This document shows, in pieces, positions 4,281 through 61,760 of a stretch of 64,000 bases of DNA (position 1 is the stretch's first letter; each line of letters starts with the position of its first letter). Source of the DNA: Octopus vulgaris (lineage: Eukaryota). Under the pieces are notes generated by a model. That model was not told where the DNA came from, made no database searches, and saw only the letters and a list, made by a program, of their open reading frames with translations. The DNA lies in contig OX597821.1 in the NCBI GenBank assembly GCA_951406725.2, forward strand, positions 20,336,001 through 20,400,000, written 5' to 3'. A program made the translations under genes and the position numbers.

Positions 4281-5375
4281 TGCTAACTAACGACAAAAAT
4301 CGTGTTACAAAGGGTTTTATGGTCTCCAGGTCCAATTGTTTACTCAGACTTCACGCTATCAGTTGGTGCCTGTCATATCCACATTCGACTCCTTAACTTA
4401 CTTATCTTACCTGTATATCAGCAACAATTACTTTTGACTACTTCGTCATTAAGTCTCCAAATATATTTCCTAGCACTAATGTTTTCTTGATTTCCCCAGT
4501 TACCGTCAACGCTTCATGATCGATACCGACTCAATTCATTATTTTCAGCAATGTCAATGCCCATCACCTTTTGTGGATCTTTCCAAAAGTTTGTTTGTGC
4601 ACTATCAAACCTATCTATGAAATCCAAGGCTAACAGTGTATAACACGTTATATTACATGTACATAATATATGCAGTGAAACAGGTGACAAAACATCCAAC
4701 ACAATTTATTCCAAAAGGATGCTAATAGACCACCAAACATGATCTCTCATCAAACAAGCATTTGATAATAAAACAACAAATAGCGGTGACATCACCAATA
4801 GTTCATGGTATTTAAAACTTCCGGTCTTCAATAATAGAATAACTACTGCAATCGTCATGGAGGAATAGTGTGGGTGGGGTGAGTTTTAAATAGATAAGTG
4901 GGACAGAATGTTCAATTTTTTTTTCTCGTTTTCTCCCTACTTGTTTCAAATCATTACATGGCAAGCATGGCATCATCATTTTGTACTGCTGTGTCATCTT
5001 TGAGAATTACCATAGATCAGCATGTATTCGGTGGTTTAGGTTGCCTCGTAGAGTATCTATGTCACTGTGTGGTTTGTAGTGTGCTATGGGTTTTGGTGTA
5101 TGATTCATTGTCTGTATGGAGACTGAGATATATGTGTGGTGGGTGTTTGGCAGCGAGTAACTGTCAATGTTAAAAATAATTATGTTTTAGCATAAATTCC
5201 TCAATGGGCTTACGGCCATTTTCCTATGCGTTTACGCTGCTATTCATGGGCCTTCGCGTGTGCTTATAAGGGTAGACTGCAATGTTTGTAGATATATATT
5301 TTTCCACCCTATTTTATTTCAGATCTCTAATAAAATACCTTCATAATTTTCGATGTTTATACATACATACATACA

Positions 5376-6268: not shown

Positions 6269-6488
6269 AGCGGCGAGCTGGCAGAAACGTTAGCACGCCG
6301 GACGAAATGCGTAGCCGTATTTCGTCTGCCGTTACGTTCTCAGTTCAAATTCCGCCGAGGTCGACTTTGCCTTACATCCTTTCGGGGTCGATAATTTAAG
6401 TACCAGTTACACACTGGGGTCGATGTAATCGACTTAATCTCCTTGTCTGTCCTCTCTGTGTTTATCCCCTTGTAGGTAGCAAAGAAAT
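6269..6488 (+). mobile_element. tRNA-derived SINE family A (Meta-domain-like), full copy with TSD
   Basis: Head gcggcgagctggcagaaacgttagc, B-box gttcaaattcc, body gtcgactttgccttacatcctttcggggtcgat. 11-bp TSD acgtattatac at 6258-6268 and 6489-6499. Confidence 0.9.
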
Positions 6489-7470: not shown

Positions 7471-8567
7471 AATATATATTTATATAGACGATATACATCC
7501 GGATGCATAAGAAACCGGTAGCAACCCAATTGAGTTCAAAGTCGGGGTGTGAATTTAACAACAAATGTGAAGCTTATTTAACTCTGCAAGCATACACGGC
7601 TTACAACAGCATGTTTATATATTATTAAAGGATTAACTAAATCGGATAAATAATTTTACAAAGAAAAACTCATTCATGGCCACAATTTCAGTCAATAAGA
7701 TTCAAATGTTTTACCAGGTTTTGTTTCAATGAAACAAAATAATTAGAATATATCTACAAACATTACAGTCTACCCATATAAGCACACGTGAAGGCCCATG
7801 AATAGCAGCGTAAACGCATATGAAAATGGCCGTAAGCCCGTTGATGAATTTATGCTAAAACATAATTATTTTTAACATTGACAGTTACTCGCTGCCAAAC
7901 ACCCACCACGCATATATCTCAGTCTCCATACAGACAATGAATCAGATGCCAAAACACGTAGCGCACTACAAACAACACAGTGACGTCGATACTCTACTAG
8001 ACAACCGAAACCACCGAATCATTGAAGCTAATACGATAAGCTAATATTCAGTATATAGATTCATTATCGTAAAGCTCTTCATCTGTAGATACTGCTAATA
8101 AACGCGCCATCTGGTGGAAGAGATAGTGTTTGCACCGAAGGGAGAGCACAAAATATATTTTCCTCTTTTATTACTGATTAATTTTTATGATCAATTATTT
8201 TCTTTCAATTTTTTAACAAAGTACCAACATCGACAGAAAAAATATAGACGAAAGGAAAAAAATGACTAACACAAAACTTTCTGGAAGGTTTCATTATTTG
8301 AACAGATAGAAGGTGGATAGTAAATTATAATTTTACCACTGAGTAGTAACAATAGATTCATGGGTAATTATGTTTCAAACTTGCTTATATGAAGGAAACA
8401 ACATTCTTATTTACAAAATGGCCGAGATGGTTAGACTTTGGAGACACGAGTGTATATATATATATATATAAAGTTAATCCAAACAAGAAAACACAGAAAA
8501 AAACAGCAACGCGAGGACGTGGAACAATTAAAGTATTATTTGACGCTCAGGAAAGAAGGGAAGGAGG

Positions 8568-12078: not shown

Positions 12079-13485
12079 CTAAGAGGAGGTGGCAGTGTTG
12101 AGTCCGTGTGGGGTTGGAGTCTGTAGAAGGAATATGAGCCGTTGCTCCAAGTGAAGCCTGGATTGTGGAGAGCCATTGTGTGGGGCAAGACCAAACACCG
12201 AGATGTCATTGGGGGAATTGCTGGCCGAGCGGAAGTGACATGGGACGGGAGAATGGGACCGTAGACGAACATCCCTCAGATGTTCGGCGAATCGGTCTGA
12301 CAACCGGCGTCCCGTCTGTCCTATATACAGCATCCCACAGAGGTTGCATTTAATGCAGTATATGTGTCCAGACGAGGTGCACGTAAAAGAATGCCTGATA
12401 CATACAGTTCGCCGGTTGGAATCAGTGACAGCAGTGGTGTTGGTGATGAAGGGGCAGGTGTTGCAGCGGGATCTGGAGCACGGGAAGGATCCGAGTGGGG
12501 CCGAGGGGGAAGAAGGGAGGGTGCTACGGACCAGGAGGTCGCGTAGATTCCGGGCTCGTTTGAAGGAGGACAGGGGTGGGTTGGGGAAAATGGGGTGGGT
12601 CGTGGAATCGAGCTGGAGACGACGGAAGGCACGAAGTATCTTCCGACGAAGGGGTAGAGTAGAGGGGTGGAAAAGGAGGGGAAAGGGGTGCGGATGGGGG
12701 TGGGTGATTGGAAGGAGAAAGGGCGACGAGCGTGGGCGAGGGCGTTCAAGACCAGGGTAGGTGGGTAACCTCGAAGCCTGAACAGGCGGGCCAGGTATTG
12801 AGACTGGGTCTCGAAGTCCTGGTCGCGGCTGCACAAGCGTCGGAGGCGGAGGAACTGGGAGTAGGGGATGGCCCGTTTGGTGTGGAAGGGATGGGAGGAG
12901 GAGAAGTTGAGATAGAGGTGGGAATCCGTGGGTTTGAAGAAGGCGGAGGTGGTGAGAGAATGGGAGGGGTGGTCGATGCTGAGTGAGATATCAAGGAAGT
13001 TAACGGAAGTATTGGAGATGGTGGAAGTGAATTGTAGAGAGGGGTGGAAGTTAGAGAGGAAAGAGATGAAGTGGCAGAGTTGTTCGCGGGAAAGGGAGGT
13101 GGCGCCTATACAGTCGTCTATGTAACGACCGTATAGTTCTGGGGTCGGCCCGGAGAATTGGGAGAATACTTGGGCCTCAATGTAGCCAACAAAGAGATAG
13201 GCGAAATTGGGGCCCATTCTCGTTCCCATCGCGACCCCAGACTCCTGTTGGTACGTTTCCCCGGCGAACGTGAAACAGTTGAGGGTTAGGACGAGCTCTG
13301 CCAGGCGGAGGAGGGTGGGTGTGCTTGGGGTGGGGTCGGGACGACGGTCGAGGCTGTGTTGGAGAGCTAGGAGACCATCGTTGTGGGGAATTACCGTATA
13401 CAGGGATTTGATGTCATGGGTGAAGAGGAGGTGTGAGGGGCTGGAAGGGAAGGAAAAGGAATTGAAGAGACGGAGGGTGTGGTTG
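12079..13485 (-). pseudogene. Penelope-like reverse transcriptase + GIY-YIG endonuclease (5' truncated, one frameshift near 12700-12730)
   Basis: RT motifs DIKSLYT, GVAMGTRMGPNFAYLFVG and YGRYIDDCIG. Second frame carries CSRSRCNTC, IYCIKCNLCGMLYIGQTGRRLSDRFAEH and EQRLIFLLQTPTPHGLN. Confidence 0.93.
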
Positions 13486-13603
13486 ATATATATATATATA
13501 TATACCACACATATATACCATACATACATACATATCTATCTATCTATATAAATATATATACTATAAGGTTATTTATAATAATATGTCATTACTATTGTTG
13601 TTA

Positions 13604-17784: not shown

Positions 17785-17947
17785 TTATTTATTTATTACC
17801 CACAAAAGGCTAAATATAGAGGGGACAAACAAGGACAGACATTAAGTCGATTACATCGACCCCAGTGCGTAACTGGTGCTTAATTTGTCGACCCCGAAAG
17901 GATGAAAGGCAAAGTCGACCTCGGCGGAATTTGAACTCACAACGTAA
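17785..17947 (-). mobile_element. SINE family A, partial
   Basis: Reverse complement of the 6340-6488 body (gtcgacctcggcggaatttgaactc). Confidence 0.85.
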
Positions 17948-18059: not shown

Positions 18060-19280
18060 AGGGCGGCGAGCTGGCAGAAACGTTAGCAAGCCGGGCGAAA
18101 TGCTTAGCTGTATTTCGTCTGTCTTTATGTTCTGAAATGAAATTCCGCTGAGGTCGACTTTGCCTTTCATCCTTTTAAGTACCAGTTGCATATCGGGGTC
18201 GATCGGGGTCGATCTAATCGACTGGCTCCTCCCACAAAATTTCGGGCCCTGTGTCTAGAGTAGAAAGGAATATGTTTCTGATTGCCCCTTACTATTATTT
18301 GTTAGCGAAAGACGGCGAGCTGGCAGAATCGTTAGAGCGCCAGACGAAATGCTTAGTAGGAATTCGCCCGCCGCTACCTTCGTGTTGAAATTCCACTGAG
18401 GTCAACTTTACCTTTCATCCTTTTCGGGTCGATAAAATAAGTACCAGTTGAACATTGGGATCGATTTAATTGACTTATCCCTTTCCTCAAAGTTGCTGCA
18501 CTTGTGGCAAAATTTGAAACCTTTATTTTTTGTTAGCGTAAAGCGGTGGCATGCTGGTAGAAATTTTAGAATGGTGGACAAAACTTTTTAGCGTTATTTC
18601 GTCTATCTTACGCTTTGGTTTTGAATTCCTCCGATGTCGCGTTTGCTTTCATCATTGCGTGGGTCGATGGAATAAGTACCAGTTTACTACTTAAGTCGAT
18701 ATAATCGCTTAACCACGTCCACACATAATTTTAGGCCTTATGCTTGTAACAGAAAATAATTTGTTATATAGGTGGCGAGCAGGCATAATCGTTAGTATAC
18801 CGAATATTATGCTTAAAGGCATTTCGTCTTTCTTTACGTTCTAAGTTCAAATTCCGCTTCAACTATGGTTTCATCCTTTCAGAGTCGATAAAATAAATAC
18901 CACTCATGTACTGGGGTCATTGTAATGGACTTCCCCCTCCTTTCAAAAGATGCAGGCTATGTGTCAACATAGAAAACATGATTATTTATTAGTGTTGTAT
19001 TTCCTTTGTCAATTTAAGGTGGCAATGTAGCAGAATAGCTTGTGTTGTAAGAAAATGCCTTGCCGATTGCGTATCATCAAACTTCAAATCCCACCCAGAT
19101 CCGATTATTTCACATCAGAGTTCAAATCCCACCCATATCCGATTATTTACCTTCACAGTTGAAATCCCACCCAGATTTCATTGGGATTGATAAATTAAGC
19201 TACCAGTCATGTAATGGAGTGGATTTAAGCGACTTATCCCACTAAGGAACTCAGAATAGCTAGGTTGGTGCCGAATGTAG
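18060..19280 (+). mobile_element. Head-to-tail stack of five SINE family A copies
   Basis: Heads at ~18061, 18311, 18541, 18771 and 19017. Each has the gcctttcatcc/gtcgataaaataagtaccag body; divergence increases downstream. Confidence 0.85.
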
Positions 19281-20309: not shown

Positions 20310-20515
20310 TCAAATTTCAAATTTTGGCACTTGGCCAGCAATTTCGTGAAAGGGGTCATGTCTATTCCATCGACCACAGTGGTCGCCTGGTACTTATTTT
20401 ATTGGTTCCGGAATGATGGCATGCAAATTCGAACTCGGCGGAATTTGAACAGAGACCGTAAAGACGAACTAAATACCACTAAGCATTATATCAGCCGTGC
20501 TAGCTTGCCACCTCA
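20310..20515 (-). mobile_element. SINE family A, degenerate
   Basis: tggtacttattttatt..ctcggcggaatttgaac..gctagcttgccacc is the reverse complement of family A. Confidence 0.7.
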
Positions 20516-21900: not shown

Positions 21901-22149
21901 TTTCAGGTGCTAGTGGTGGAAAGATTTTGTGATTATAGATATGGTGGTGTTGTTATCAGTGGTAACATGCATTATATCGTTGCTGCTGCAGTTTTATTTC
22001 GATTTATCTAACTAAGCCTCCCTTGTACTTGATATGAATTGTTTTTGTTATTAAATTAATAAAGTTTGCTAATTGAAAGATTAAAAGAAAAATTCTTCAT
22101 TGTTATGTTGTAGATCTAGCATTTATACTATAATTATTTTCATATTGCA

Positions 22150-22186
22150 GGCGCAGGAGTGGCTGTGTGGTAAGTAGCTTGCTAAC
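22150..22186 (+). mobile_element. SINE family B, 5' half (A box) of a split copy
   Basis: ggcgcaggagtggctgtgtggtaagtagcttgctaac matches the heads of intact copies ending at 27822 and 33927 (minus strand). The SINE continues at 26334. Confidence 0.92.
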
Positions 22187-24149
22187 TGCGCATGTGCGAG
22201 TCAGTGTTATGTTTGCCACTGAAGCAGTGAAGATGTGCTTTTGAAGCCGTCTTGAATTGAAAACTTTGGAAGCCCCATGTAAGATAAGATTCTGTTTTCT
22301 GGGTCCAGTGGGAGTTTTTGTTGAGAATTATTTTTACATGCAGGAAGTCCTACTGGATTCAGAATTCTGATTCTGCCGACATGTGGCAAATATATTTTTC
22401 TCGCTGAGAAAATTTTGGGGGGCGTATCCGTCTTCGAATTGTGAAAATTGAATTGTGCTGTGAAGAACTACCAATTTTACACCAATTTTTGTGGAAGTTG
22501 TACGATCCTGGTTCGATTTAGGCCGGGAGTACCAAATGGCCAAAAGGATTTTGCTGTGTTATTGACTTTCTTTTTAACTTTATTTGACTTTCGTTTTTAA
22601 CTTTATTTGACTCTCTCCTTTTTTCATTGTGACTTTCTTCGGATTTCCTTTTCTTCTCGTTTTTTAGTTTTATTCTAAATACATTTATTTAAAAAAAAAA
22701 ACATGGCAACAAAAGAAACCACCGCTTTGGAATGGGAGGTCGTCCCACCCAAGCAGTGGATTGAAAGTCTTGAGAAGAGGACGGTGGTCCTACGAACCTA
22801 TTCTAGGTCGCGTGGAGCCATTGCCCTCTTCGACAGGAATACTATAGAGAAAGAGTTGGGGGAATACCTGCCAACTATAAAATTTATTTCTCGGGGACTA
22901 AATTTGCAACGGTGTGGTTGCTGTTTGGTACCCCCGAGGAAGCTAGCAGATTTGCTAGCGAGCCACTGGAGGGAGAGGAAATTTTGTTCCTCCCCTCGTA
23001 TTGTGGCAGAAAAGTGAAAAGAGCCTGGGTGTGTGGGCTGCCCCGGGCACGGAGGTGGAATGGATCGAGAAGACCATCCGGCGAGGCCTGGGGGATAGCG
23101 GACCCAGACTGCTGAGTGTGAAGGTGGCTCCCGCGGTCGCCTGGGAGGGGTCGAGGGCAACTTTGATACTGTGGACACCGGTAGCCGTGGGAGAAATGAA
23201 ATTCCCGGACTTCCTGAGAATGGCTGGGCACAGGTACCCGGTGATACTCGAGGGTCGCCCCCCCCAAGTGTCACCTGTGCCTGAAGCCCGGACATATCAG
23301 GAAGAATTGTCCCAGGGGCCGTGGTGGTGCCCCGGAGCAGAGAGGGGAAAAGGCGCCCGCCGCCCCCTCATTGGAGGGGGAGACGATGGAAGTCGTGGAG
23401 GAGGTTGCCTCCACGAAAAGAAAGAGAAAGGCGAGCAACAATGGTTGCCCGCCAAAGAACGCTCAGGGGGCGAAGGGGGATAGCAATCCCCGTGTCTGGT
23501 GACGGAGTCCCCTGGGTCAGCAGTCTCCCCCAAAAGAAGGAGGAGAAAAAGGAGAGGTCGGACGACTGACGTTTCTGTGTCGCCGACGGAGCCGCGGGTG
23601 GGATGTGTGCCACCCGCGGACAAGGCTCCGCCAGTAGGAAGTGTGCCACCGACGGAGCAGTGTGAGGTCCCTCCCTGTGAAGAGGAGATGCTTCTCCTCC
23701 TTTACCACAAGGGAGAGGAGGTTGAAAGATTCTTGAATGGCTTGGGTGACCGAGAGCGTAAGGGCACGGTCGGCTCAAGGAGTCCGTTATGGCCTCCGCG
23801 GGTAGCTGCGGAAAAAGTAACAGAAGATACTTTGTCAAGGGTCGCAGAGACCTTTGAAAAGAAAGACTTTACCTTTCTCTTTGCAGGCCCCGACTTGTCG
23901 TCGCAGAGTTGTCTGCAGGCGGCAAGACAATTTGCTTCGGGGACCTGACGAGAAGAATTGTTGAACATTTTTTGAACATTTTATTAAATGTATTTATTGA
24001 AACATTGTTTTAGAGAAGCGAAAGTCAGCGGGCGCTTTCGACTTCTCCCATCACCATCTTCATCCACCACCACCATCATCCATTAATGTCCTTGTCCAGC
24101 CCGTAGCTACTACTCTGTGTGCTGCCCTAGTGGCAAATTATATAAAATA
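22187..24149 (+). mobile_element. ORF1-only non-LTR retroelement, copy 1 (Tx1/L1-like ORF1, no RT)
   Basis: Flanked by 15-bp AAGTAGCTTGCTAAC at 22172-22186 and 24150-24164. Has a ~515-bp 5' UTR, a single frameshifted ORF, and a structured 3' UTR ending in AATAAA. Confidence 0.85.
22703..23948 (+). CDS. ORF1/Gag-like nucleic-acid-binding protein (RRM-like x2, CCHC zinc knuckle), frameshifted
   Basis: Pieces in different frames join by comparison with copy 2: MATKE..KFISRG / ATVWLLFGTPEEASRF..AWVCGLP / PGTEVEWIEKTIRRGL..YPVILEGRPP / KCHLCLKPGHIRKNCP (CX2CX4HX4C, ~23266-23313) ..LLYHKGEEVE..WPPRVAAE. The three N-terminal shifts lie in G/C homopolymers. Confidence 0.8.
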
Positions 24150-24164
24150 AAGTAGCTTGCTAAC

Positions 24165-26333
24165 AGTTGCTTCTGCGCATGTGCGAGTCAGTGTTGTGTT
24201 TGGCACTGAAGCGGTGAAGACGTGCTTTTGAAGCCGTCTTGAATTGAAAACTTTGTTTTCTGGGTCCAGTGGGAGTTTTTGTTGAGAATTGTTTTTTACA
24301 GGCAGGAAGTCCTACTGGATTCAGAATTCTGATTCTGTCGACATGTGGCAAATATATTTTTCTCGCTGAGAAAATTTGGGGGGCGTATCCATCTTCGATA
24401 AATTGAGTGAATATTTTTTTCACGTAATTGTGAGAATTGTATTGTGCTGTGAAGAACTTTTATGAATTGTGAAAACTGCTATATAGGGGAGTATTTTGCC
24501 TCCGAAGTTTGAACAATTTTTACCAATTTTACACCAATTTTTGTGGAAGTTGTGCGTTCCTGGTTCAATTTAGGCCGGGAGTACCAAATGGCCAGAAGGT
24601 TTTTGCTGTGTTATTGACTTTCTTTTTAACTTTATTTGACTTTCTCTTTAACTTTATTTGACTCTCTCCCTTTTTCACTGTGACTTTCTTCGGATTTCCT
24701 TTTCTTCTCGTTTTTTAGTTTTATTCTGAATACATTTTAAAAAAAAAACAAAAAAAAACAAAAAAAAACATGGCAATGAAAAATAACAAGCTTTTGGAAT
24801 GGGAGCTCATACCGCCTAAAAAGTGGTTAAAAAACCGTGAAGATAGGACGGTGGTGTTGAGAACCTACTCCAAGGCACTCGACACCATCGCCCTATTCGA
24901 AAAGACGGTAATTGAAAAGGAGTTGGAAGAGTATTTGCCAACAATTAAATTCATTTTCAGGGGTGTCAAATATGCAACGGTGTGGTTGCTATTTGACACC
25001 CTTGAAGAGGCTTGCAAATTTGCTAGCAAACCCCTGGAGGGTAAGGAAATCTTATTCCTGCCCACGTACAAAAAAAAGAAATTGATGAAAGCTTGGATTT
25101 GCGGGCTGCCACCCGACATAGAACCCGAGTGGATAGAGGAGACTATCCGCCGGGGTCTGGGTAGCAGCGAAACTAAGCTCCTTAATGTAAAAGTTCTTCC
25201 TGCGGCTGCTTGGGTTGGGTCAAAAGCAATTCTGACCCTGTGGACCCAATCAGCCAATCTGGTTCTTCCAGATTTTTTGAAAATGGCCGGGTGCAGGTAC
25301 CCGGTGATGCTTGAGGGTCGCCCCCCTAACTGTCATCGGTGCTTGGAGTCCGGCCACATAAAGAACTGTCCCCGGGAACAAAATAGGATCCCGGAACAGT
25401 TAAGCAAAACCCCTCTAGAAGAGGGAATGATAACGGCCGAGAAAGCAGAGGACTCCTCAAACAGAGGCCGAAAGAGGAAGGTGAGCAACAATGGGTGCTC
25501 ACCAAAGGATAATAGGGATGAGGAGAGGAAGGCAAATCTTCCAGCCACGGAGGAGACGCACCCTCCCTCAGTTGAAAAGGGAAAAAAAAGAAAAAGAGGA
25601 AGAAAAACGGGACATTACCGGCTGTCAGTGTAGCACCGGAATGTCCCGGAACTACGTCGGTTGGGGTTGTGCCACCGACAAGAGAAGGAATACTGTTGGC
25701 GGGAACTGTGCCGCCAACGAAAGAACTGAACGTATTGGTCCTCTTCTATAGAGGAGGAGAAATTGAAAAAGTGATGGAAGAGCACCACAAGGGAGCACCT
25801 TTAGCCTTCACACAGGACCCCGAATGGCCTCCGCAGGTAGCTGTGGAGGCCGTGGCGTTCGACGTGACGCTTGGGCTAAATGAGCTCAATGAAGATTATA
25901 ACTTGGTCCCGGGCGACGCTGACTCGGAACTTGATTACGTTCTGAGGGAGGCGTGGTTGATGGTGGAGGGCGCGGTCACAAGCGATTTCGAGGACGATAT
26001 GTAATTTATTGAACTGTTATTATTAGTAATGGACTGCTAAGTCCAAAAATTGAAAAATTGTAAGAGGTTTAATATCTCGTTTTGTGTTTATTTTTATTAA
26101 TAATGGACTGCTAAGTCTAAAAATTGGAAAAATTGTAAGAGGTTTAATACCTCGTTTTGTGTTTATCTTTAAAAAGAACAATGTTTTAGAGAAGCGAAAG
26201 TCGGCGGGCGCTTTTTGTCTTCTCCCATCCTTATCATCTTTCTTTCATTATCATTCACTTCATTAATGTCCTCGTCCAGCCCGCAAAGCTAACTTAATCT
26301 GTGTACTGCCTTTATGGCAAATGTTTTGAAATA
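24165..26333 (+). mobile_element. ORF1-only non-LTR retroelement, copy 2
   Basis: Flanked by AAGTAGCTTGCTAAC at 24150-24164 and 26334-26348. The 5' UTR is highly similar to copy 1, the ORF is diverged, and the 3' structure is the same. A ~73-bp tandem duplication lies in the 3' UTR (~26020-26167). Confidence 0.85.
24770..26004 (+). CDS. ORF1/Gag-like protein, ~410 aa if one frameshift in the A-rich run at ~25570-25610 is corrected
   Basis: 287-aa ORF with KAWICGLPPDIEPEWIEETI (RNP2-like) and GRPPNCHRCLESGHIKNCP (CX2CX4HX3C). Another frame continues ..TLPAVSVAPECPGTTSVGVVPPTREG into ORF 25669-26004 (LFYRGGEIE..WPPQVAVE). Confidence 0.82.
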
Positions 26334-26733
26334 AAGTAGCTTGCTAACCAACCACATGGTTCCGGGTTCAGTCACACTGCGTAGCATCTTGGGCAAGTGT
26401 CTCCTGCTATAGCCCCAGGCCGACCAAAGCCTTGTGAGTGGATTTGGTAGACGGAAAACTGAAAAGAAGCCTGTCGTATATATGTATATATATATATATA
26501 TATGTAAGTGCGTGTGTGTTTGCGTGTCTGTGTTTGTACCCCTAGCATTGCTTGACAACCGATGCTGGTGTGTTTACGTCCCCGTCACTTAGCGGTTCGG
26601 CAAAAGAGGCCGATAGAATAAGTACTAGGCTTACAAAGAATAAGTCCCGGGGTCGATTTGCTCGACTAAAGGCGGTGCTCCAGCATGGCCGCAGTCAAAT
26701 GACTGAAACAAGTAAAAGAGTAAAAAGAGAGAG
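26334..26733 (+). mobile_element. SINE family B, 3' part (B box + body) of the split copy
   Basis: caaccacatggttccgggttcagtcacactgcg..gcatggccgcagtcaaatgactgaaacaagtaaaagag. The SINE's own imperfect TSD is atattgcag (22142-22150) / atattgaag (26735-26743). Confidence 0.92.
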
Positions 26734-27402: not shown

Positions 27403-27822
27403 CTCTCTCTTTTACGCTTTTACTTGTTTCAGTTATTTGACTGCGGCCATGCTGGGGCACCGCCTTTAGTCGAGCAAATCGATCCCTGGACTTATTCTTT
27501 GTAAGCCCAGTACTTATTCTATCGGTCTCTTTTGCCGAACCGCTAAGTTACAGGGACGTAAACACACCAGCATCGGTTGTCAAGCAATGCTAGGGGGACA
27601 AACACAGACACACACAAACACACACACACGCACACGTATATATATATATACATATATACGACGGGCTTCTTTCAGTTTCCCTCTACCAAATCCACTCACA
27701 AGGCTTTGGTCGACCCGAGGCTATAGTAGAAGACACTTGCCCAAGGTGCCACGCAGTGGGACTGAACACGGAACCATGTGGTTGGTAAGCAAGCTACTTA
27801 CCACACAGCCTACTCCTGCGCC
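27403..27822 (-). mobile_element. SINE family B, full uninterrupted copy
   Basis: Reverse complement of 22150-22186 + 26349-26733. Provides the empty-site sequence ggtaagtagcttgcttaccaacc. Confidence 0.93.
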
Positions 27823-33530: not shown

Positions 33531-33927
33531 TTTTTACTTGTTTCAGTCATTTTGACTGCGGCCATACTGGAGCACCGCCTTTAATCGAGCAACTCGACAC
33601 CGGGACTTATTCTTTTGTAAGCCCAGTACTTATTCTATCGGTCTCTTTTGCCGAACCGCTTAGTAACGGGGACATAAACACACCAACATTGGTTGTCAAG
33701 CAATGCTTGGGGGACAAACACAGATACACAAACATACACGCACATACATATATATACATATATACGACGGGCTTCTTTCAGTTTCCGTCTACCAAATCCA
33801 CTCACAAGGCTTTGGTCGGCCCGAGGATATAGTAGAAGACACTTGCCCAAGGTGCTACGCAGTGGGAATGAACCCGGAACCATGTGGTTGGGAAACAAGC
33901 TACTTACCACACAGCCACTCCTGCGCC
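33531..33927 (-). mobile_element. SINE family B, full copy
   Basis: Same head and body as 27403-27822. Confidence 0.93.
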
Positions 33928-41329: not shown

Positions 41330-42520
41330 ACATAGAAATATCTTGAAATACTAAAGAGTAAATTTATTCAACAAAATTGCCATTGGCTTTAACCACGGAC
41401 TCCATACGACTTCGAAATCTCCTGCATCTCTTCACAACTGTCTCCTTGATTAAGTTGCTGAATGCTCTTATAATGCTGGCCTTCAGTTAATCTTTGATGT
41501 TACAAGGCGTTTTGCTGGCCTCTTACTCAACTGCGCCTCACAAATAATAAACAAAGGGGTTGCCGTCTGTGGAGTCAACTGACCAGATGTTAAGTGTGAT
41601 GTGGTCGTAGAAACCGTCTGACAGCCATCACTGGGTTCCGCTCGTGTGGCATGGTGCAGAGTCTTGGTGACATAAGGTCTTCCTGCAGCCACCCTCTTGA
41701 CCAAGGGTAGCACTAGCTCATCCAGGCATTTGATGTAGGCCTCTGTGTTGAGTCTTAGGCTCTGTGGGAATATAAATGGAGGCATAACGTCGCCATCACT
41801 AGTGGTCACTCGAAACACCACGATGTTGACTGGATGTTTGATTTTTATCATTCTCAGTACATGTTTTGATGATACGTCAAGCCAACGGTTGTTCTATGTG
41901 TTCACTATCTGATCCCTGCAGAAAAAAAGAAATCCAAAGCATGTTCGGTTGGAAGGGATGCTTGAGTTTGTTTAAAAGCTTCGTAGCTTGATCTTTCCTC
42001 TTTTCCTTGATGGCTTGGGATAAAAATTGGTTCTTTCTTATCATGTATGAGGAATACCGAATGTCTTTATGCACTACTTATGTGATAAGAAATTCAGACT
42101 CTCACATGTCACTGGCGATGGACCTGAATGACTGGGAGGGATCGTTGTCAATCATGGTCTCGATCCCACAAACGAATTCAGGAGTTCTTCTCTTATCAGA
42201 ACGATCAAAATGAGTTTTTCGAGCTGCCAATCATCATTAGACTCATCCAAGTTTTTCCAAATCCTCTGCACTGTCCTTAGATTCACAAAAAACAATCACT
42301 CTGAAATGTTAGTATTGGAGCTTCCGGCGCGAATACCAAGCGAGACGGCATATCATTTCTAAATTTCTTGCAAAGTGTCTTGGGTCATGGTGCTGTTTTT
42401 TTTTCAGACGGTACCCAACTGTACTCAGTATACCGCGGCGTCTACAAAATCAAAAATAAAAAATGCGCATGCGAGAAAACAAAACTATCATGTGTGACGA
42501 TTTACCCATGGTACTCTTTA
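41330..42520 (-). mobile_element. Decayed Tc1/mariner (probably maT/DD37D-type) DNA transposon
   Basis: KRKDQATKLLNKLKHP..; KHPVNIVVFRVTTSDGDVMPPFIFPQSLRLNTEAYIKCLDELVLPLVK; frameshifted QDSAPCH and TPQTATPL (the WPPNSPDCNP region out of frame). Confidence 0.85.
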
Positions 42521-51859: not shown

Positions 51860-52243
51860 CTAGCAGTATCGCCCGGCGTTGCTCAGGTTTGTAAGGGAAA
51901 TAACTATAAAGCATTTTTAGAGAGTTATAGCCAAAAAATAGCAAAAAATGGAAAAAAATGATGGTAAATTTTTTTTGAGAGTAAAAAAAGGTGGAGTTGC
52001 GTCCCCTAGACAGTTTGCGGTTTGTGTTTCTGATTCTCGACCCCATGTCGAATTTATCGATTTTTTTTTCAGAACTGGGGGAACTTTTCAAAATTTTCGC
52101 TGCGTTAGTTTTGAATTATTACATTGGGCTATGTGTGTGTCAAGTTTCATCAGAATCGGTTGAAAGCCGTGGTCAGGTGAGGGTACAAGCAAACAGACAC
52201 ACAGAAACACGCACAGACAAACTGCCGTTTATATATAGAGAGA
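51860..52243 (-). mobile_element. Non-autonomous Helitron
   Basis: The minus strand begins A|TC (52243) and ends CTAG|T (51860), with a subterminal hairpin cctgagcaacgccgggc and internal acagac-type repeats. Confidence 0.75.
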
Positions 52244-52304
52244 TATAATATATATATATATAACATATATATATTTATAATATATATATACATATATATA
52301 TACA

Positions 52305-52735
52305 TCATGTGCATGATGTGGAAAATATTCCATCAGTATTGCCCAAATGATGTTGGCATCACCTTTAAGGTACATCCAAGACTTGGGCCCCGTGCCATCC
52401 GCCCAAAACAAAAATCGCACTCTCATCTCATAACAACAATACGGCACAACTATTTCACCTCAATTGGCCCCGCTCTCTTTAACATTACACCAAAACACAT
52501 TAAAACAGAAACTGACCCTATAGGGTTCAAGAAGTCTTTGGACAGATTCCTTCAAGAAATCCCGGATAAACCCCCTACACCCGGATATGTCTCTGTAAAC
52601 AATAACTCTCTACTTGAGTGGGCCATAGTGCCCAAATTCTCACTTGAAAGACTTCACCAGGTGGTGCTATTAAGTTAGACATGGCCTGGGCCAATAATGG
52701 CCGAAACCTATCAAAGTATCAAAGTATCAAAGTAT
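52305..52735 (+). mobile_element. CR1-group LINE, 3' end
   Basis: ORF ..HNYFTSIGPALFNITPKHIK..FKKSLDRFLQEIPDKP..NNNSLLEW, 3' stem-loop ggccaataatggcc, and tail (TATCAAAG)3. Confidence 0.8.
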
Positions 52736-60362: not shown

Positions 60363-61760
60363 TTATTTATCAAGAAATTTATTATATAAGTAAAGTAACT
60401 TGTGTTTGCATTTTATTTTGCGCTCATCACAGATATTCAGTAAATTATCATGCTTATAAAATAAAATTTCCTTAAACTCATTAGAACATAAATAACAAAA
60501 ATTCGCTCCTATACTATATGATTTAGTTTTACTAATTATTTCCCAAGATAAATTATAATTACCATTTTGGGATTTAAGTCTCCAAATGTACTTGCTAAGT
60601 CCAGTGGAGTTAATTAAGTTTTTATTTTTAAATGAATTCATATGTTGTGCGATTCTTAATTTTATTTTAGAGGAAGTGGACCCTATATATATCGCGTTTG
60701 AGTTATTATTATTATTATTATTATTATCATGTAATGTAACTATACATTTATACACTACATCGTTAATATCACATTTATTATTTAATTTACATTTAGTTTT
60801 ATCTCTACATGTACAGTTAATTAGTGTCTTGTCTTTATTATTGGTATTATTATATAATATATTTTTATAAAAATTATTCAGTTTAAATTTGTTAAAAGAA
60901 GAAATAATGTTACCTACACTATTAGTGGTGGAATAACCTACTCCAAAATTATTACTAGAGAAAATGTTTTTATATTTACGATTATCTCGAATAAATAGTT
61001 CAATAATATCTAAAATCTCTTTAATAATGTTCGTTTTAACTTGAGCACCATAAGGAACTATTAACGAAATTTTATTCTTATTTTCCTTCTTATTATTATT
61101 AAAACTGTCATTATTATTGTTATTATTATATTTCTTTATCATATTATTATTATTATTATTATCAGATTTATATTTATAATTAACATTTAAAGAATTATTA
61201 AAGTTATTAATTTATTTTTATTTTTATTCTTATTTTTATTTATATTATTTTTATTTTTATAATTTCTAATATTATTACCACTATTACTAACAAAATTATT
61301 ATAATTATTATTAATATTTTTATCTCTAATATTATTAGTTATATCTTTATCTTTATTTTTAATAAAAAATTTAATATTACTATTATATCCTGCCTCTCTA
61401 AGGGCCTCATTGTAATAAGGAGCATGTTTATTAAAAATCTCTAAATCATAAGAAAGTAATGATATACGTTTACTTATATTATTAATCAACGATTTTTTAA
61501 TTGATGGTGGGTGATTACTATTAACATTTATATATCTAAGGTTCTCATTAAGTTTATGATATGGTTGTGTTTTACCTGTAATTAGATTAAAATTAACATC
61601 TAAATAATTAACATTAAAATTCTCATTATATATAGTGATACTTAAACCATATCTTTTAAAGAAACTATAAAGTTTTTTTATATACTTCTAGGTTCCTATT
61701 AGTGCAATTGTTAGTAATTAGTAGAAGGTCATCCCTATATAAACCACCCTCTATTTTTAA
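60363..61760 (-). pseudogene. Penelope RT C-terminus + GIY-YIG endonuclease (frameshifted, Asn-rich)
   Basis: CTCRDKTKCKLNNKC..DVVYKC..IYIGSTSSKIKLRIAQH..TGLSKYIW..WEII..CYLCSNE; upstream frames carry YRDD and NHPP. Confidence 0.88.

What the first reader, a model, noticed from the sequence alone, without database searches (positions are those of the whole stretch)
22150..26733. SINE-targeting, ORF1-only retrotransposon: two diverged copies stacked in one 15-bp site inside a SINE tRNA head
Seen: the layout is [SINE A box]-T-[element 1, ~1.96 kb]-T-[element 2, ~2.17 kb]-T-[SINE B box and body], where T = AAGTAGCTTGCTAAC at 22172-22186, 24150-24164 and 26334-26348. Removing the elements restores a SINE like the intact copies at 27403-27822 and 33531-33927, and the SINE keeps its own imperfect TSD (atattgcag/atattgaag). 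The two ORFs match at only 41 of the first 65 aa (hand count), so this is not a recent local duplication. Neither element has RT or endonuclease. Established: ~15-bp TSDs are typical of L1/Tx1 target-primed reverse transcription. Tx1-clade elements can be sequence-specific (U2 snRNA, tRNA spacers, other transposons), and ORF1-only HAL1 elements exist. Inference: a non-autonomous, protein-coding family mobilised in trans by a site-specific Tx1-like partner uses a high-copy SINE as landing pad and disables its Pol III promoter, making it a parasite of a parasite. I do not recall such a family from cephalopods.
Basis: partly seen in the sequence, partly recalled or inferred. Interest (0 to 1): 0.92.

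Follow-up and report, generated by a model that had tools for sequence, protein, structure and literature searches.

The report
Octopus retrotransposons stacking inside a SINE
Two copies of a one-gene jumping element sit head-to-tail at one exact base of a very common octopus repeat; they borrow the enzymes of a full-size retrotransposon in the same genome that targets the same base, a layered parasite system assembled from known kinds of parts.

Summary
Observation confirmed, and the predicted partner was found. Both elements belong to a multi-subfamily, ORF1-only retroelement lineage. Its protein has two RRMs and a CCHC knuckle and shows dN/dS about 0.2. 211 of 216 exact element-2 3' ends are followed by the target, and 30 of 30 inspected sit at the same SINE base. 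Near-identical elements (0.35% apart) lie in SINE hosts 8.0% apart, so the insertions are independent. An autonomous 5.44-kb L1/Tx1-type element (APE, RT, zf-RVT) ends at the same site in 20 of 20 copies and shares only a terminal hairpin with them. Corrections: the 15-mer is part true duplication, part element-carried; the SINE's own TSD is weak; only about 2% of sites are filled. Unexpectedly, stacks are polarised: element-1-type copies nearly always sit upstream of another element, which suggests template jumping (inferred). Verdict: a new variant of known kinds (HAL1/HeT-A-like passengers of a site-specific Tx1-type LINE). Repbase and Dfam could not be checked.

The parts
22150..22171 (+). 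Host SINE head with A-box-like motif (22160-22170); insertion follows the D-loop-equivalent GGT
   Evidence: collinear alignment of the SINE head to the genome's own tRNA genes; A-box label recalled
22172..22186 (+). Outer 5' copy of the 15-nt target (host duplication plus element-carried distal part)
22187..24149 (+). Element 1, ORF1-only lineage A, 'stacker' subfamily, 1963 bp
22187..22702 (+). Element 1 5' UTR (presumed internal promoter), nearly identical type to the element 2 UTR
   Evidence: promoter role inferred
22703..23948 (+). Element 1 ORF1, frameshifted here (first frame 104 aa); a 415-aa open copy exists elsewhere
24123..24135 (+). 3' terminal hairpin TGCC-N5-GGCA of element 1, shared with the partner
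24150..24164 (+). Internal target copy between elements 1 and 2
24165..26333 (+). Element 2, ORF1-only lineage A, main subfamily, 2169 bp
24165..24769 (+). Element 2 5' UTR, one of at least four UTR types found on the same ORF
24770..26004 (+). Element 2 ORF1 (two RRMs at about aa 20-102 and 103-183, CCHC knuckle at about 188-201); frameshifted after 287 aa here, 412-414 aa in open copies
26017..26171 (+). Tandem duplication of about 80 bp in the element 2 3' UTR
26307..26319 (+). 3' terminal hairpin TGCC-N5-GGCA of element 2; no poly(A) tail follows
26334..26348 (+). 3' copy of the target (host SINE sequence)
26349..26733 (+). Rest of the host SINE: B-box-like motif (about 26365-26375), body and tail
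27403..27822 (-). Empty SINE copy (comparison)
33532..33927 (-). Empty SINE copy (comparison)

Best explanation
The two inserts are copies of a non-autonomous, ORF1-only non-LTR retrotransposon lineage. Each is transcribed from its own 5' UTR (inferred) and encodes an RNA-binding ORF1p. Its RNA ends in a short hairpin that the ORF2p of an autonomous 5.44-kb L1/Tx1-type element accepts in trans (inferred from the shared end and target). That ORF2p nicks one base of the tRNA-derived head of a very abundant octopus SINE and reverse-transcribes the RNA there, duplicating roughly 10-16 nt of target. Full-length RNAs begin with a copy of the target, which seals the 5' junction by homology and regenerates the site (inferred from junction asymmetry). 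Shown: family, specificity, independent insertion, partner, selection on ORF1. Inferred: trans-mobilisation and the 5' annealing step. Stacking is not random. Element-1-type copies are added upstream of another element, most likely (my odds about 0.45 of the stacking models) by the RT jumping from a finished cDNA, whose end mimics the target primer, onto a second RNA.
For: Specificity: 28 of 28 other ORF-selected copies with a 3' end in the locus (29 fetched; L016 lacked one) and 30 of 30 end-selected copies (one locus in both sets) abut the SINE at the same base. 211 of 216 do so genome-wide; the 2 of 5 exceptions I could locate are also in the SINE. Independence: 34 element pairs under 0.6% apart average 0.35% while their hosts average 8.0%; Mantel r 0.03, p 0.37 on 25 loci. 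Private or subfamily host variants appear on both sides of several inserts (L008, L027, L237, L208). Partner: ORF2 lies upstream of 6 of 30 unselected junctions. It has APE, RT and zf-RVT domains. 144 of 150 scored hits are at 75% identity or more, and 14 have ORF2 frames of at least 1133 aa. 20 of 20 top copies end at the site (19 exact, 1 off by one base). Shared 3' hairpin. ORF1p: dN/dS 0.20 (lineage A, 7 copies) and 0.18 (lineage B, 6 copies); model pLDDT 88 with two RRM folds. 5' carry-over: 7 full-length lineage-A copies have the A-type 15-mer at 5' but a T-type host at 3', none the reverse, and L006 has a 16-nt duplication plus an extra target copy. Polarity: element-2-type ends abut the SINE body in all copies above and partner ends in 19 of 20. 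In contrast, 12 of 13 element-1-type ends on contig C1 and 12 of 21 lineage-B ends are followed by another element, against about 2.3% occupancy. An extra-T form of the target occurs at internal junctions in 9 of 24 sites and in 0 of 41 outer 5' junctions (Fisher p 4e-5).
Against: No biochemical or transcript evidence; trans-mobilisation rests on the shared end and target. Partner and passengers share only 27-44 nt, and ORF1 is 29% identical, so another, unseen partner subfamily cannot be excluded. ORF1p is not strictly needed in cis: the same first frameshift recurs in 10 of the 18 rows listed for element-1-type ORF starts, at four loci, and many element-2-type hits have a shortened frame of about 200 aa. 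Homopolymer slippage could produce these independently. One Tx1-type copy of a family not otherwise seen in the SINE (L071, 1 of 30 zf-RVT loci) and a second SINE (6 of 30 loci) also sit at this site, so cargo choice is leaky. Element 1 is about 1.0-1.1% from its nearest fetched relative and element 2 about 1.9-2.1%, which fits later insertion of element 1 as well as simultaneous insertion. Occupancy rests on exact-match counts, and both numerator and denominator are lower bounds.
Confidence: 0.9

Rival explanations
1. Same system, but stacks arise by later, separate insertions into the 5' junction of a resident element, which is a preferred target (for example because its promoter keeps the site open).
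For: The 5' junction regenerates head plus target. Element 1 looks younger than element 2 in the window. Downstream partners of element-1-type copies are of at least six kinds. In old arrays the internal targets carry the old host variant.
Against: Internal junctions should then show the same variants as outer 5' junctions. Instead the extra-T form is at 9 of 24 internal sites and 0 of 41 outer junctions, and the outer GTCTAAC form (4 of 41) is at none of the 42 internal ends listed. It also does not explain why element-2-type and partner copies rarely stack upstream.
Confidence: 0.3
2. Stacks are read-through units: an upstream element's promoter transcribes the whole stack, which is recopied as one piece, and runs of element 1 grow by unequal crossing-over.
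For: There is no poly(A) tail. Units within the C1 223.7-Mb array are 99.2-100% identical. The target variant is uniform along runs within an array.
Against: The same pair is not repeated as one lineage, since downstream members vary. The first junction still needs another origin. It probably does explain runs of more than one element 1.
Confidence: 0.25
3. SINE plus insert is a composite that amplified as one unit, so the apparent specificity is inheritance from a single event.
For: Every copy has both SINE halves.
Against: Hosts are 8.0% apart when inserts are 0.35% apart, with no correlation. Truncated inserts of many lengths lie in intact heads. Three unrelated cargo types use the site.
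Confidence: 0.02
4. The ORF1-only copies are passive deletion derivatives or decay products of the present autonomous element.
For: A clade of lineage A plus partner ORF1 is not rejected (p-AU 0.32), so ancient descent from the partner's lineage is possible.
Against: There is no DNA similarity beyond the last 27-37 nt. ORF1 is 29% identical. There are hundreds of same-length copies with purifying selection among subfamilies. Lineage B plus partner is rejected (p-AU 0.0004).
Confidence: 0.03
5. The 15-mer is an intrinsic terminal repeat and the element enters the SINE by recombination, not by target-primed reverse transcription.
For: Full-length copies do carry target-like sequence at their 5' end.
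Against: The 3' copy follows the host variant. 5'-truncated copies have fixed 3' ends and duplications of about 7-16 nt. An APE/RT partner with the same ends exists.
Confidence: 0.02

Closest known systems
ORF1-present non-autonomous LINEs: HAL1 (L1 clade), HeT-A (Jockey clade), Ag-Sponge (CR1 clade), as listed in PMC5786205 (passages seen) and PMC5753468 (passages seen)
   Same: A single ORF1p-type gene, no RT or endonuclease, amplified as a family of its own with help from an autonomous LINE.
   Different: The partner is L1/Tx1-type in a cephalopod; insertion is base-exact in a SINE; there is no poly(A) tail; at least two passenger lineages share one partner site. HeT-A also forms head-to-tail arrays (recalled), but at chromosome ends and not in a sequence target.
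Tx1-Mar with SINEU in Mariner-N4_AMi (crocodilians) and Tx1L in Tx1D (Xenopus), PMC4494074 (passages and section 16 seen)
   Same: A Tx1-type LINE targets another high-copy transposon, trans-mobilised passengers share that target, and tandem insertions occur.
   Different: The target here is a tRNA-derived SINE head and not a DNA transposon; specificity is about 98% at one base versus 13-90% region preference for SINEU; the passengers encode a protein.
Keno, Kibi, Koshi and other sequence-specific Tx1 families (U2 snRNA, microsatellites), PMC4494074 introduction
   Same: APE-type sequence-specific insertion into a multicopy target.
   Different: Different target; none is described there with ORF1-only passengers.
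R2 5' junction by co-transcribed target sequence (PMC4494074 discussion passage) and R2 end-to-end template jumping (title only, in the reference list of PMC2881922)
   Same: RNA-carried target sequence at the 5' end; an RT able to jump to a second RNA.
   Different: R2 uses a restriction-like endonuclease and an rDNA target; jumping as the regular entry route of a subfamily is only inferred here.
Octopus L1-Tx1 families in a 2026 repeat annotation, PMC13282606 (passages and one supplement searched)
   Same: 80 L1-Tx1 consensus families are reported, 13 recently active; these elements may be among them.
   Different: No mention of target site, nesting, HAL1 or non-autonomous forms in the text or supplement searched.

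Membership tests
ORF1-only non-autonomous LINE (HAL1/HeT-A/Ag-Sponge type) | One ORF1p-type gene, no endonuclease or RT | tested here: met
   26 solo full-length copies span 2181-2280 bp junction to junction; Pfam finds only a weak zf-CCHC
ORF1-only non-autonomous LINE (HAL1/HeT-A/Ag-Sponge type) | Protein homologous to LINE ORF1p | tested here: met
   24-28% identity, E down to about 1e-22, to ORF1 of two-ORF elements in the genome; invariant EGR-P-C-x-GH-C motif; two RRM folds
ORF1-only non-autonomous LINE (HAL1/HeT-A/Ag-Sponge type) | Amplifies as its own family with a maintained ORF | tested here: met
   216 exact ends; 11 of 30 fetched copies with 412-414-aa frames; dN/dS 0.20
ORF1-only non-autonomous LINE (HAL1/HeT-A/Ag-Sponge type) | Autonomous partner sharing 3' end or target | tested here: met
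ORF1-only non-autonomous LINE (HAL1/HeT-A/Ag-Sponge type) | Origin by internal deletion of the partner lineage | tested here: inconclusive
   lineage A plus partner not rejected (p-AU 0.32, long branch); lineage B plus partner rejected (0.0004); 19 of 36 rows used
HAL1 proper (mammalian L1 derivative) | Poly(A)-tailed derivative of mammalian L1 (tail feature recalled) | tested here: not met
   no poly(A) tail in any copy; works like HAL1 but is not HAL1
Tx1 clade (for the autonomous partner) | ORF1 with zinc knuckle; ORF2 with APE, RT and C-terminal zinc finger | tested here: met
   Pfam PF00098, PF03372, PF00078, PF13966
Tx1 clade (for the autonomous partner) | Belongs to the L1 group by ORF2 similarity | tested here: met
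   best solved match is human L1 ORF2p, E 8e-67, versus R2 E 6e-20
Tx1 clade (for the autonomous partner) | RT groups with named Tx1 references, apart from L1 sensu stricto | not testable with these tools
   no hit carried a Tx1 label; Repbase and RTclass1 unavailable
Tx1 clade (for the autonomous partner) | Sequence-specific insertion into a multicopy target (common in the clade) | tested here: met
   20 of 20 3' ends; 10 of 13 ORF2-intact copies showed head plus target at the estimated 5' position, 3 did not show a junction there
Target-primed reverse transcription product | Fixed 3' end, variable 5' truncation, target duplication | tested here: met
tRNA-derived SINE (host) | tRNA-like head with A and B boxes | tested here: inconclusive
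   collinear alignment to own tRNA genes, z 5-6 for the best of 32 fetched (Lys-type and Thr), but only a few isotypes were sampled; ARAGORN and Rfam negative
tRNA-derived SINE (host) | Own target-site duplication | tested here: inconclusive
   6 nt exact in the window; 6 of 23 hosts with 8 nt or more against 16% in controls, all in TA repeats
tRNA-derived SINE (host) | Pol III transcription, lost on insertion | not testable with these tools
   no run on record as RNA

The most novel reading that the evidence does not exclude
A four-tier system: host SINE, site-specific autonomous LINE, ORF1-only passengers that start their own insertions (element 2 type), and 'rider' subfamilies (element 1 type, lineage B) that mostly enter by template jumping. 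Because each full-length RNA begins with the target sequence, every finished cDNA ends in a copy of the primer, so a rider RNA can be added without a new nick. That would make chain insertion the normal life cycle of a retroelement subfamily, and the resulting stacks would be the workshop for the 5' UTR swaps and ORF chimeras seen in the family.
Probability: 0.35. Interest if true: 0.8.

Novelty: new variant of a known kind. Interest (0 to 1): 0.64.

Why it matters
It adds a SINE head to the known targets of sequence-specific APE retrotransposons and adds a further independent origin of ORF1-only passengers, with at least two lineages sharing one partner site. With more than a thousand junctions at one base, the genome is a natural experiment on open questions: how the top strand is joined, what ORF1p contributes in cis, how 5' UTRs are swapped, and how tandem arrays form. 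An apparently young, base-exact integrase-like system with tens of thousands of dispensable sites could also be of use for gene insertion in octopus. Impact on the SINE itself is probably small (about 2% of sites).

Tried and rejected
Pfam on the window's frameshifted ORF pieces gave nothing useful. ARAGORN and Rfam did not detect the SINE head. The zf-RVT search and 20 larger stretches found other two-ORF families but not the partner. The lineage-B ORF1 search found only more ORF1-only elements. The partner came from the junction pattern. The pattern missed the standard junction by one letter; it sampled other ends instead. The pattern ends in a letter class that excludes copies followed by the SINE body, so it lists stacked element-1 ends only; the fraction was taken by comparing with the C1 part. 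In one search, five rows (L161, L164, L197, L202, L228) are false head matches inside ORFs and were ignored; L208's length is likewise unreliable. Counts include loci fetched more than once. Sequencing runs: no RNA holder listed. Laid contigs cover both elements in runs of three organism codes but cannot tell filled from empty alleles or show transcription. No named Tx1 reference was obtained. Literature: nine searches listed no paper describing this family or a SINE-specific Tx1. PMC8869645 has no mention of SINE. Two key papers (HAL1 origin; Tx1L endonuclease) were not held. The SINE could not be named; a match to a described octopus tRNA-Lys-type SINE is recalled only. Three look-ups of earlier findings returned nothing. 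Rejected: composite amplification, recent deletion derivative, intrinsic terminal repeat.


Full report
Observation. The three exact 15-mers, the two inserts (1963 and 2169 bp) and the restored SINE are as described. The restored SINE is 91.5% and 89.5% identical to the two empty copies in the window. Both ORFs are frameshifted in these copies. Their 5' UTRs are nearly the same sequence while the ORFs are about 70% alike, and the last 150 bp are 77% alike. The closest named protein is an uncharacterised Octopus sinensis protein at 64% identity, so the host is an octopus; the window lies in G000:C8.

A family, always at one base. The element 2 ORF gave the full 150 scored hits at 80-100% identity. 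Of 29 other copies fetched, 28 had a 3' end in the locus and all 28 abut the SINE at the same base; 28 had the SINE head upstream and one had an element-1-type copy upstream. The exact 28-nt element 2 end occurs 216 times. The first 30 in genome order are all in the site, 211 of 216 are followed by AAGNAG, and the two exceptions I could place are in mutated SINE sites. A looser junction pattern gives 1,096 matches against 25,180 plus 21,513 exact empty sites, about 2.3% occupancy. All counts are lower bounds.

Independent insertions. On 25 loci with full data, element pairs average 2.4% apart and their host SINEs 7.1%, uncorrelated (Mantel p 0.37). The 34 closest pairs are 0.35% apart in hosts 8.0% apart. 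Host variants show on both sides of some inserts, and older copies sit in an older SINE variant. Truncated inserts with fixed 3' ends occur in intact heads with duplications of about 7-16 nt. This is the signature of target-primed reverse transcription and excludes a composite moving as a unit.

The partner. Of the first 30 junctions, 6 had ORF2 upstream, 18 had ORF1 and 6 neither. A 5,439-bp two-ORF element closes an array of element-1-type copies on C1. ORF2 carries APE, RT and zf-RVT domains, and ORF1 a zinc knuckle; the nearest solved protein is L1 ORF2p. 144 of 150 hits are at 75% identity or more and 14 have ORF2 frames of at least 1133 aa. Twenty copies picked by ORF2 score, leaving out those already seen through the junction pattern, all end at the site (19 exact, one shifted by a base); 10 of 13 ORF2-intact copies showed the matching 5' junction where expected. 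Partner and passengers share only the last 27-44 nt, centred on a TGCC-N5-GGCA hairpin. Elements with a CCC-N5-GGG form of the hairpin were almost never in the SINE site. Tx1 rather than L1 sensu stricto is my reading from architecture, lack of a poly(A) tail and specificity; it was not tested against references.

The protein. ORF1p is homologous to ORF1 of the two-ORF elements. A model from 38 aligned sequences has pLDDT 88 and matches tandem-RRM proteins (Foldseek E 7e-5; best single-domain Z 8.8-9.1 over 71-83 residues, rmsd 2.2-2.7), followed by a CCHC knuckle. dN/dS is 0.20 among lineage-A subfamilies, so the ORF was maintained in source copies. Against a strict cis requirement, one frameshift recurs in 10 of 18 listed element-1-type rows at four loci, and short-read contigs show both forms at that position. 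A second ORF1-only lineage (B, about 1.5 kb) uses the same site and end (dN/dS 0.18). Its ORF1 groups with ORF1-only elements that do not target the SINE and not with the partner (p-AU 0.0004). For lineage A the tree is undecided (p-AU 0.32). Lineage B therefore probably adopted this partner by acquiring its end (inference).

The 15-mer. Among 26 solo lineage-A copies, 11 have a T-type host at the 3' side. Seven of these have the A-type sequence at 5', one has a 16-nt duplication plus an extra target copy, and three share a lineage-specific 5' form. Of the 15 with an A-type host, 14 match at 5' and one is clipped. So the proximal 10-12 nt or more are duplicated host DNA and the distal part arrives with the element. 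I infer that the RNA starts at the target and that the cDNA end anneals to the top strand, as discussed for R2 in PMC4494074 (passage).

Stacking. Element-2-type and partner copies almost always touch the SINE body. Element-1-type ends are followed by another element at 42 places in 24 sites (that search excluded solo copies). On C1, where one search lists both kinds, 12 of 13 ends, or 4 of 5 sites, are stacked; the one solo copy is truncated. Lineage B is followed by another element in 12 of 21 copies with a visible end, 9 showing none. The window is a typical case. Internal junctions carry an extra-T target form at 9 of 24 sites, which is absent from 41 outer 5' junctions and 106 body junctions. 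That favours internal junctions being verbatim RNA ends and hence template jumping. Sequential insertion and read-through copying remain open, and the window's element 1 looks younger than element 2. At least four 5' UTR types sit on the element 2 ORF, and ORF chimeras exist.

Host SINE. Its head aligns collinearly with the genome's own tRNA genes, the insertion falling just after the A-box region; tRNA scanners do not call it. Separating the boxes by 4 kb should silence a copy (established Pol III logic; untested here). Its own TSD is not convincing.

Comparison and novelty. ORF1-only LINE derivatives are known from the L1, Jockey and CR1 clades (PMC5786205, passages; PMC5753468, passages). 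Tx1 families targeting other transposons, with trans-mobilised passengers, are known (PMC4494074, passages and section 16). A recent octopus annotation counts 80 L1-Tx1 families without target information in the text and supplement searched (PMC13282606). Nine searches listed nothing on this system, but subscription journals, Repbase and Dfam were out of reach and two key papers were not held. Verdict: real, correctly read by the first stage, a new variant of known kinds. Confidence in the core mechanism 0.9; interest 0.64.

Noticed in passing
window 6270-6488, 17787-17946, 18062-18932, 20349-20487; L114-L116, L133-L135: A second SINE of about 240 bp is common in the window. Its tail shares about 30 nt with the partner's 3' UTR, and it was found inserted at the same target in 6 of 30 loci.
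   Followed up: partly
L091-L095; G000:C2:73.04-73.07 Mb: Another two-ORF family (1140-aa ORF2) is followed by the same flanking repeat in 5 of 5 copies and forms a tandem array at about 5.4-kb spacing, suggesting a second site-specific family.
   Followed up: no
L098, L102, L104; L100, L101, L103; L107: Further two-ORF families with shared 3' flanks, and one followed by an ATT microsatellite; the genome seems rich in target-preferring Tx1-type families.
   Followed up: no
L171-L190: A radiation of about 1.4-1.5-kb ORF1-only elements with a different end that are not in the SINE site, some in tandem.
   Followed up: partly
L109 (G000:C7:13.47 Mb): A stack of at least five elements headed by a two-ORF copy of a family otherwise not seen in the SINE.
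   Followed up: partly
G000:C1:223.69 Mb, C5:78.75 Mb, C10:101.18 Mb: Long arrays of near-identical element-1-type units at 2-kb spacing ending in a partner, element-2-type or lineage-B copy.
   Followed up: partly
L002-L030; L046, L049, L050, L056: 5' UTR swapping (at least four types on one ORF) and chimeras with an element-1-type ORF start and element-2-type end.
   Followed up: partly
one search hit list: Many element-2-type hits match only residues 1-186 with frames of about 200 aa, pointing to a break at a C homopolymer before the zinc knuckle.
   Followed up: partly
P0001, P0002: Lineage-A ORF1 is annotated as an uncharacterised gene in Octopus sinensis, and one model fuses its start to an integrase-like fragment, probably a mis-annotation.
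   Followed up: no
window 21905-22172: The unique left flank plus SINE head is held almost unchanged in runs of three organism codes, so the host SINE insertion is shared; fill state unknown.
   Followed up: partly
window 12079-13535 (-) and 60363-61687 (-): Penelope-like remnants by eye; the first has a weak GIY-YIG hit (E 0.0024, below cut-off), the second none.
   Followed up: partly
window 41483-41893 (-), 52181-52678 (+): Short frames resembling a transposase fragment and an RT-protein tail (resemblance recalled; no Pfam hit).
   Followed up: no
window 5026-5297 and 7748-8019: Inverted pair of 272 nt at 93% identity, 2.45 kb apart; not examined.
   Followed up: no
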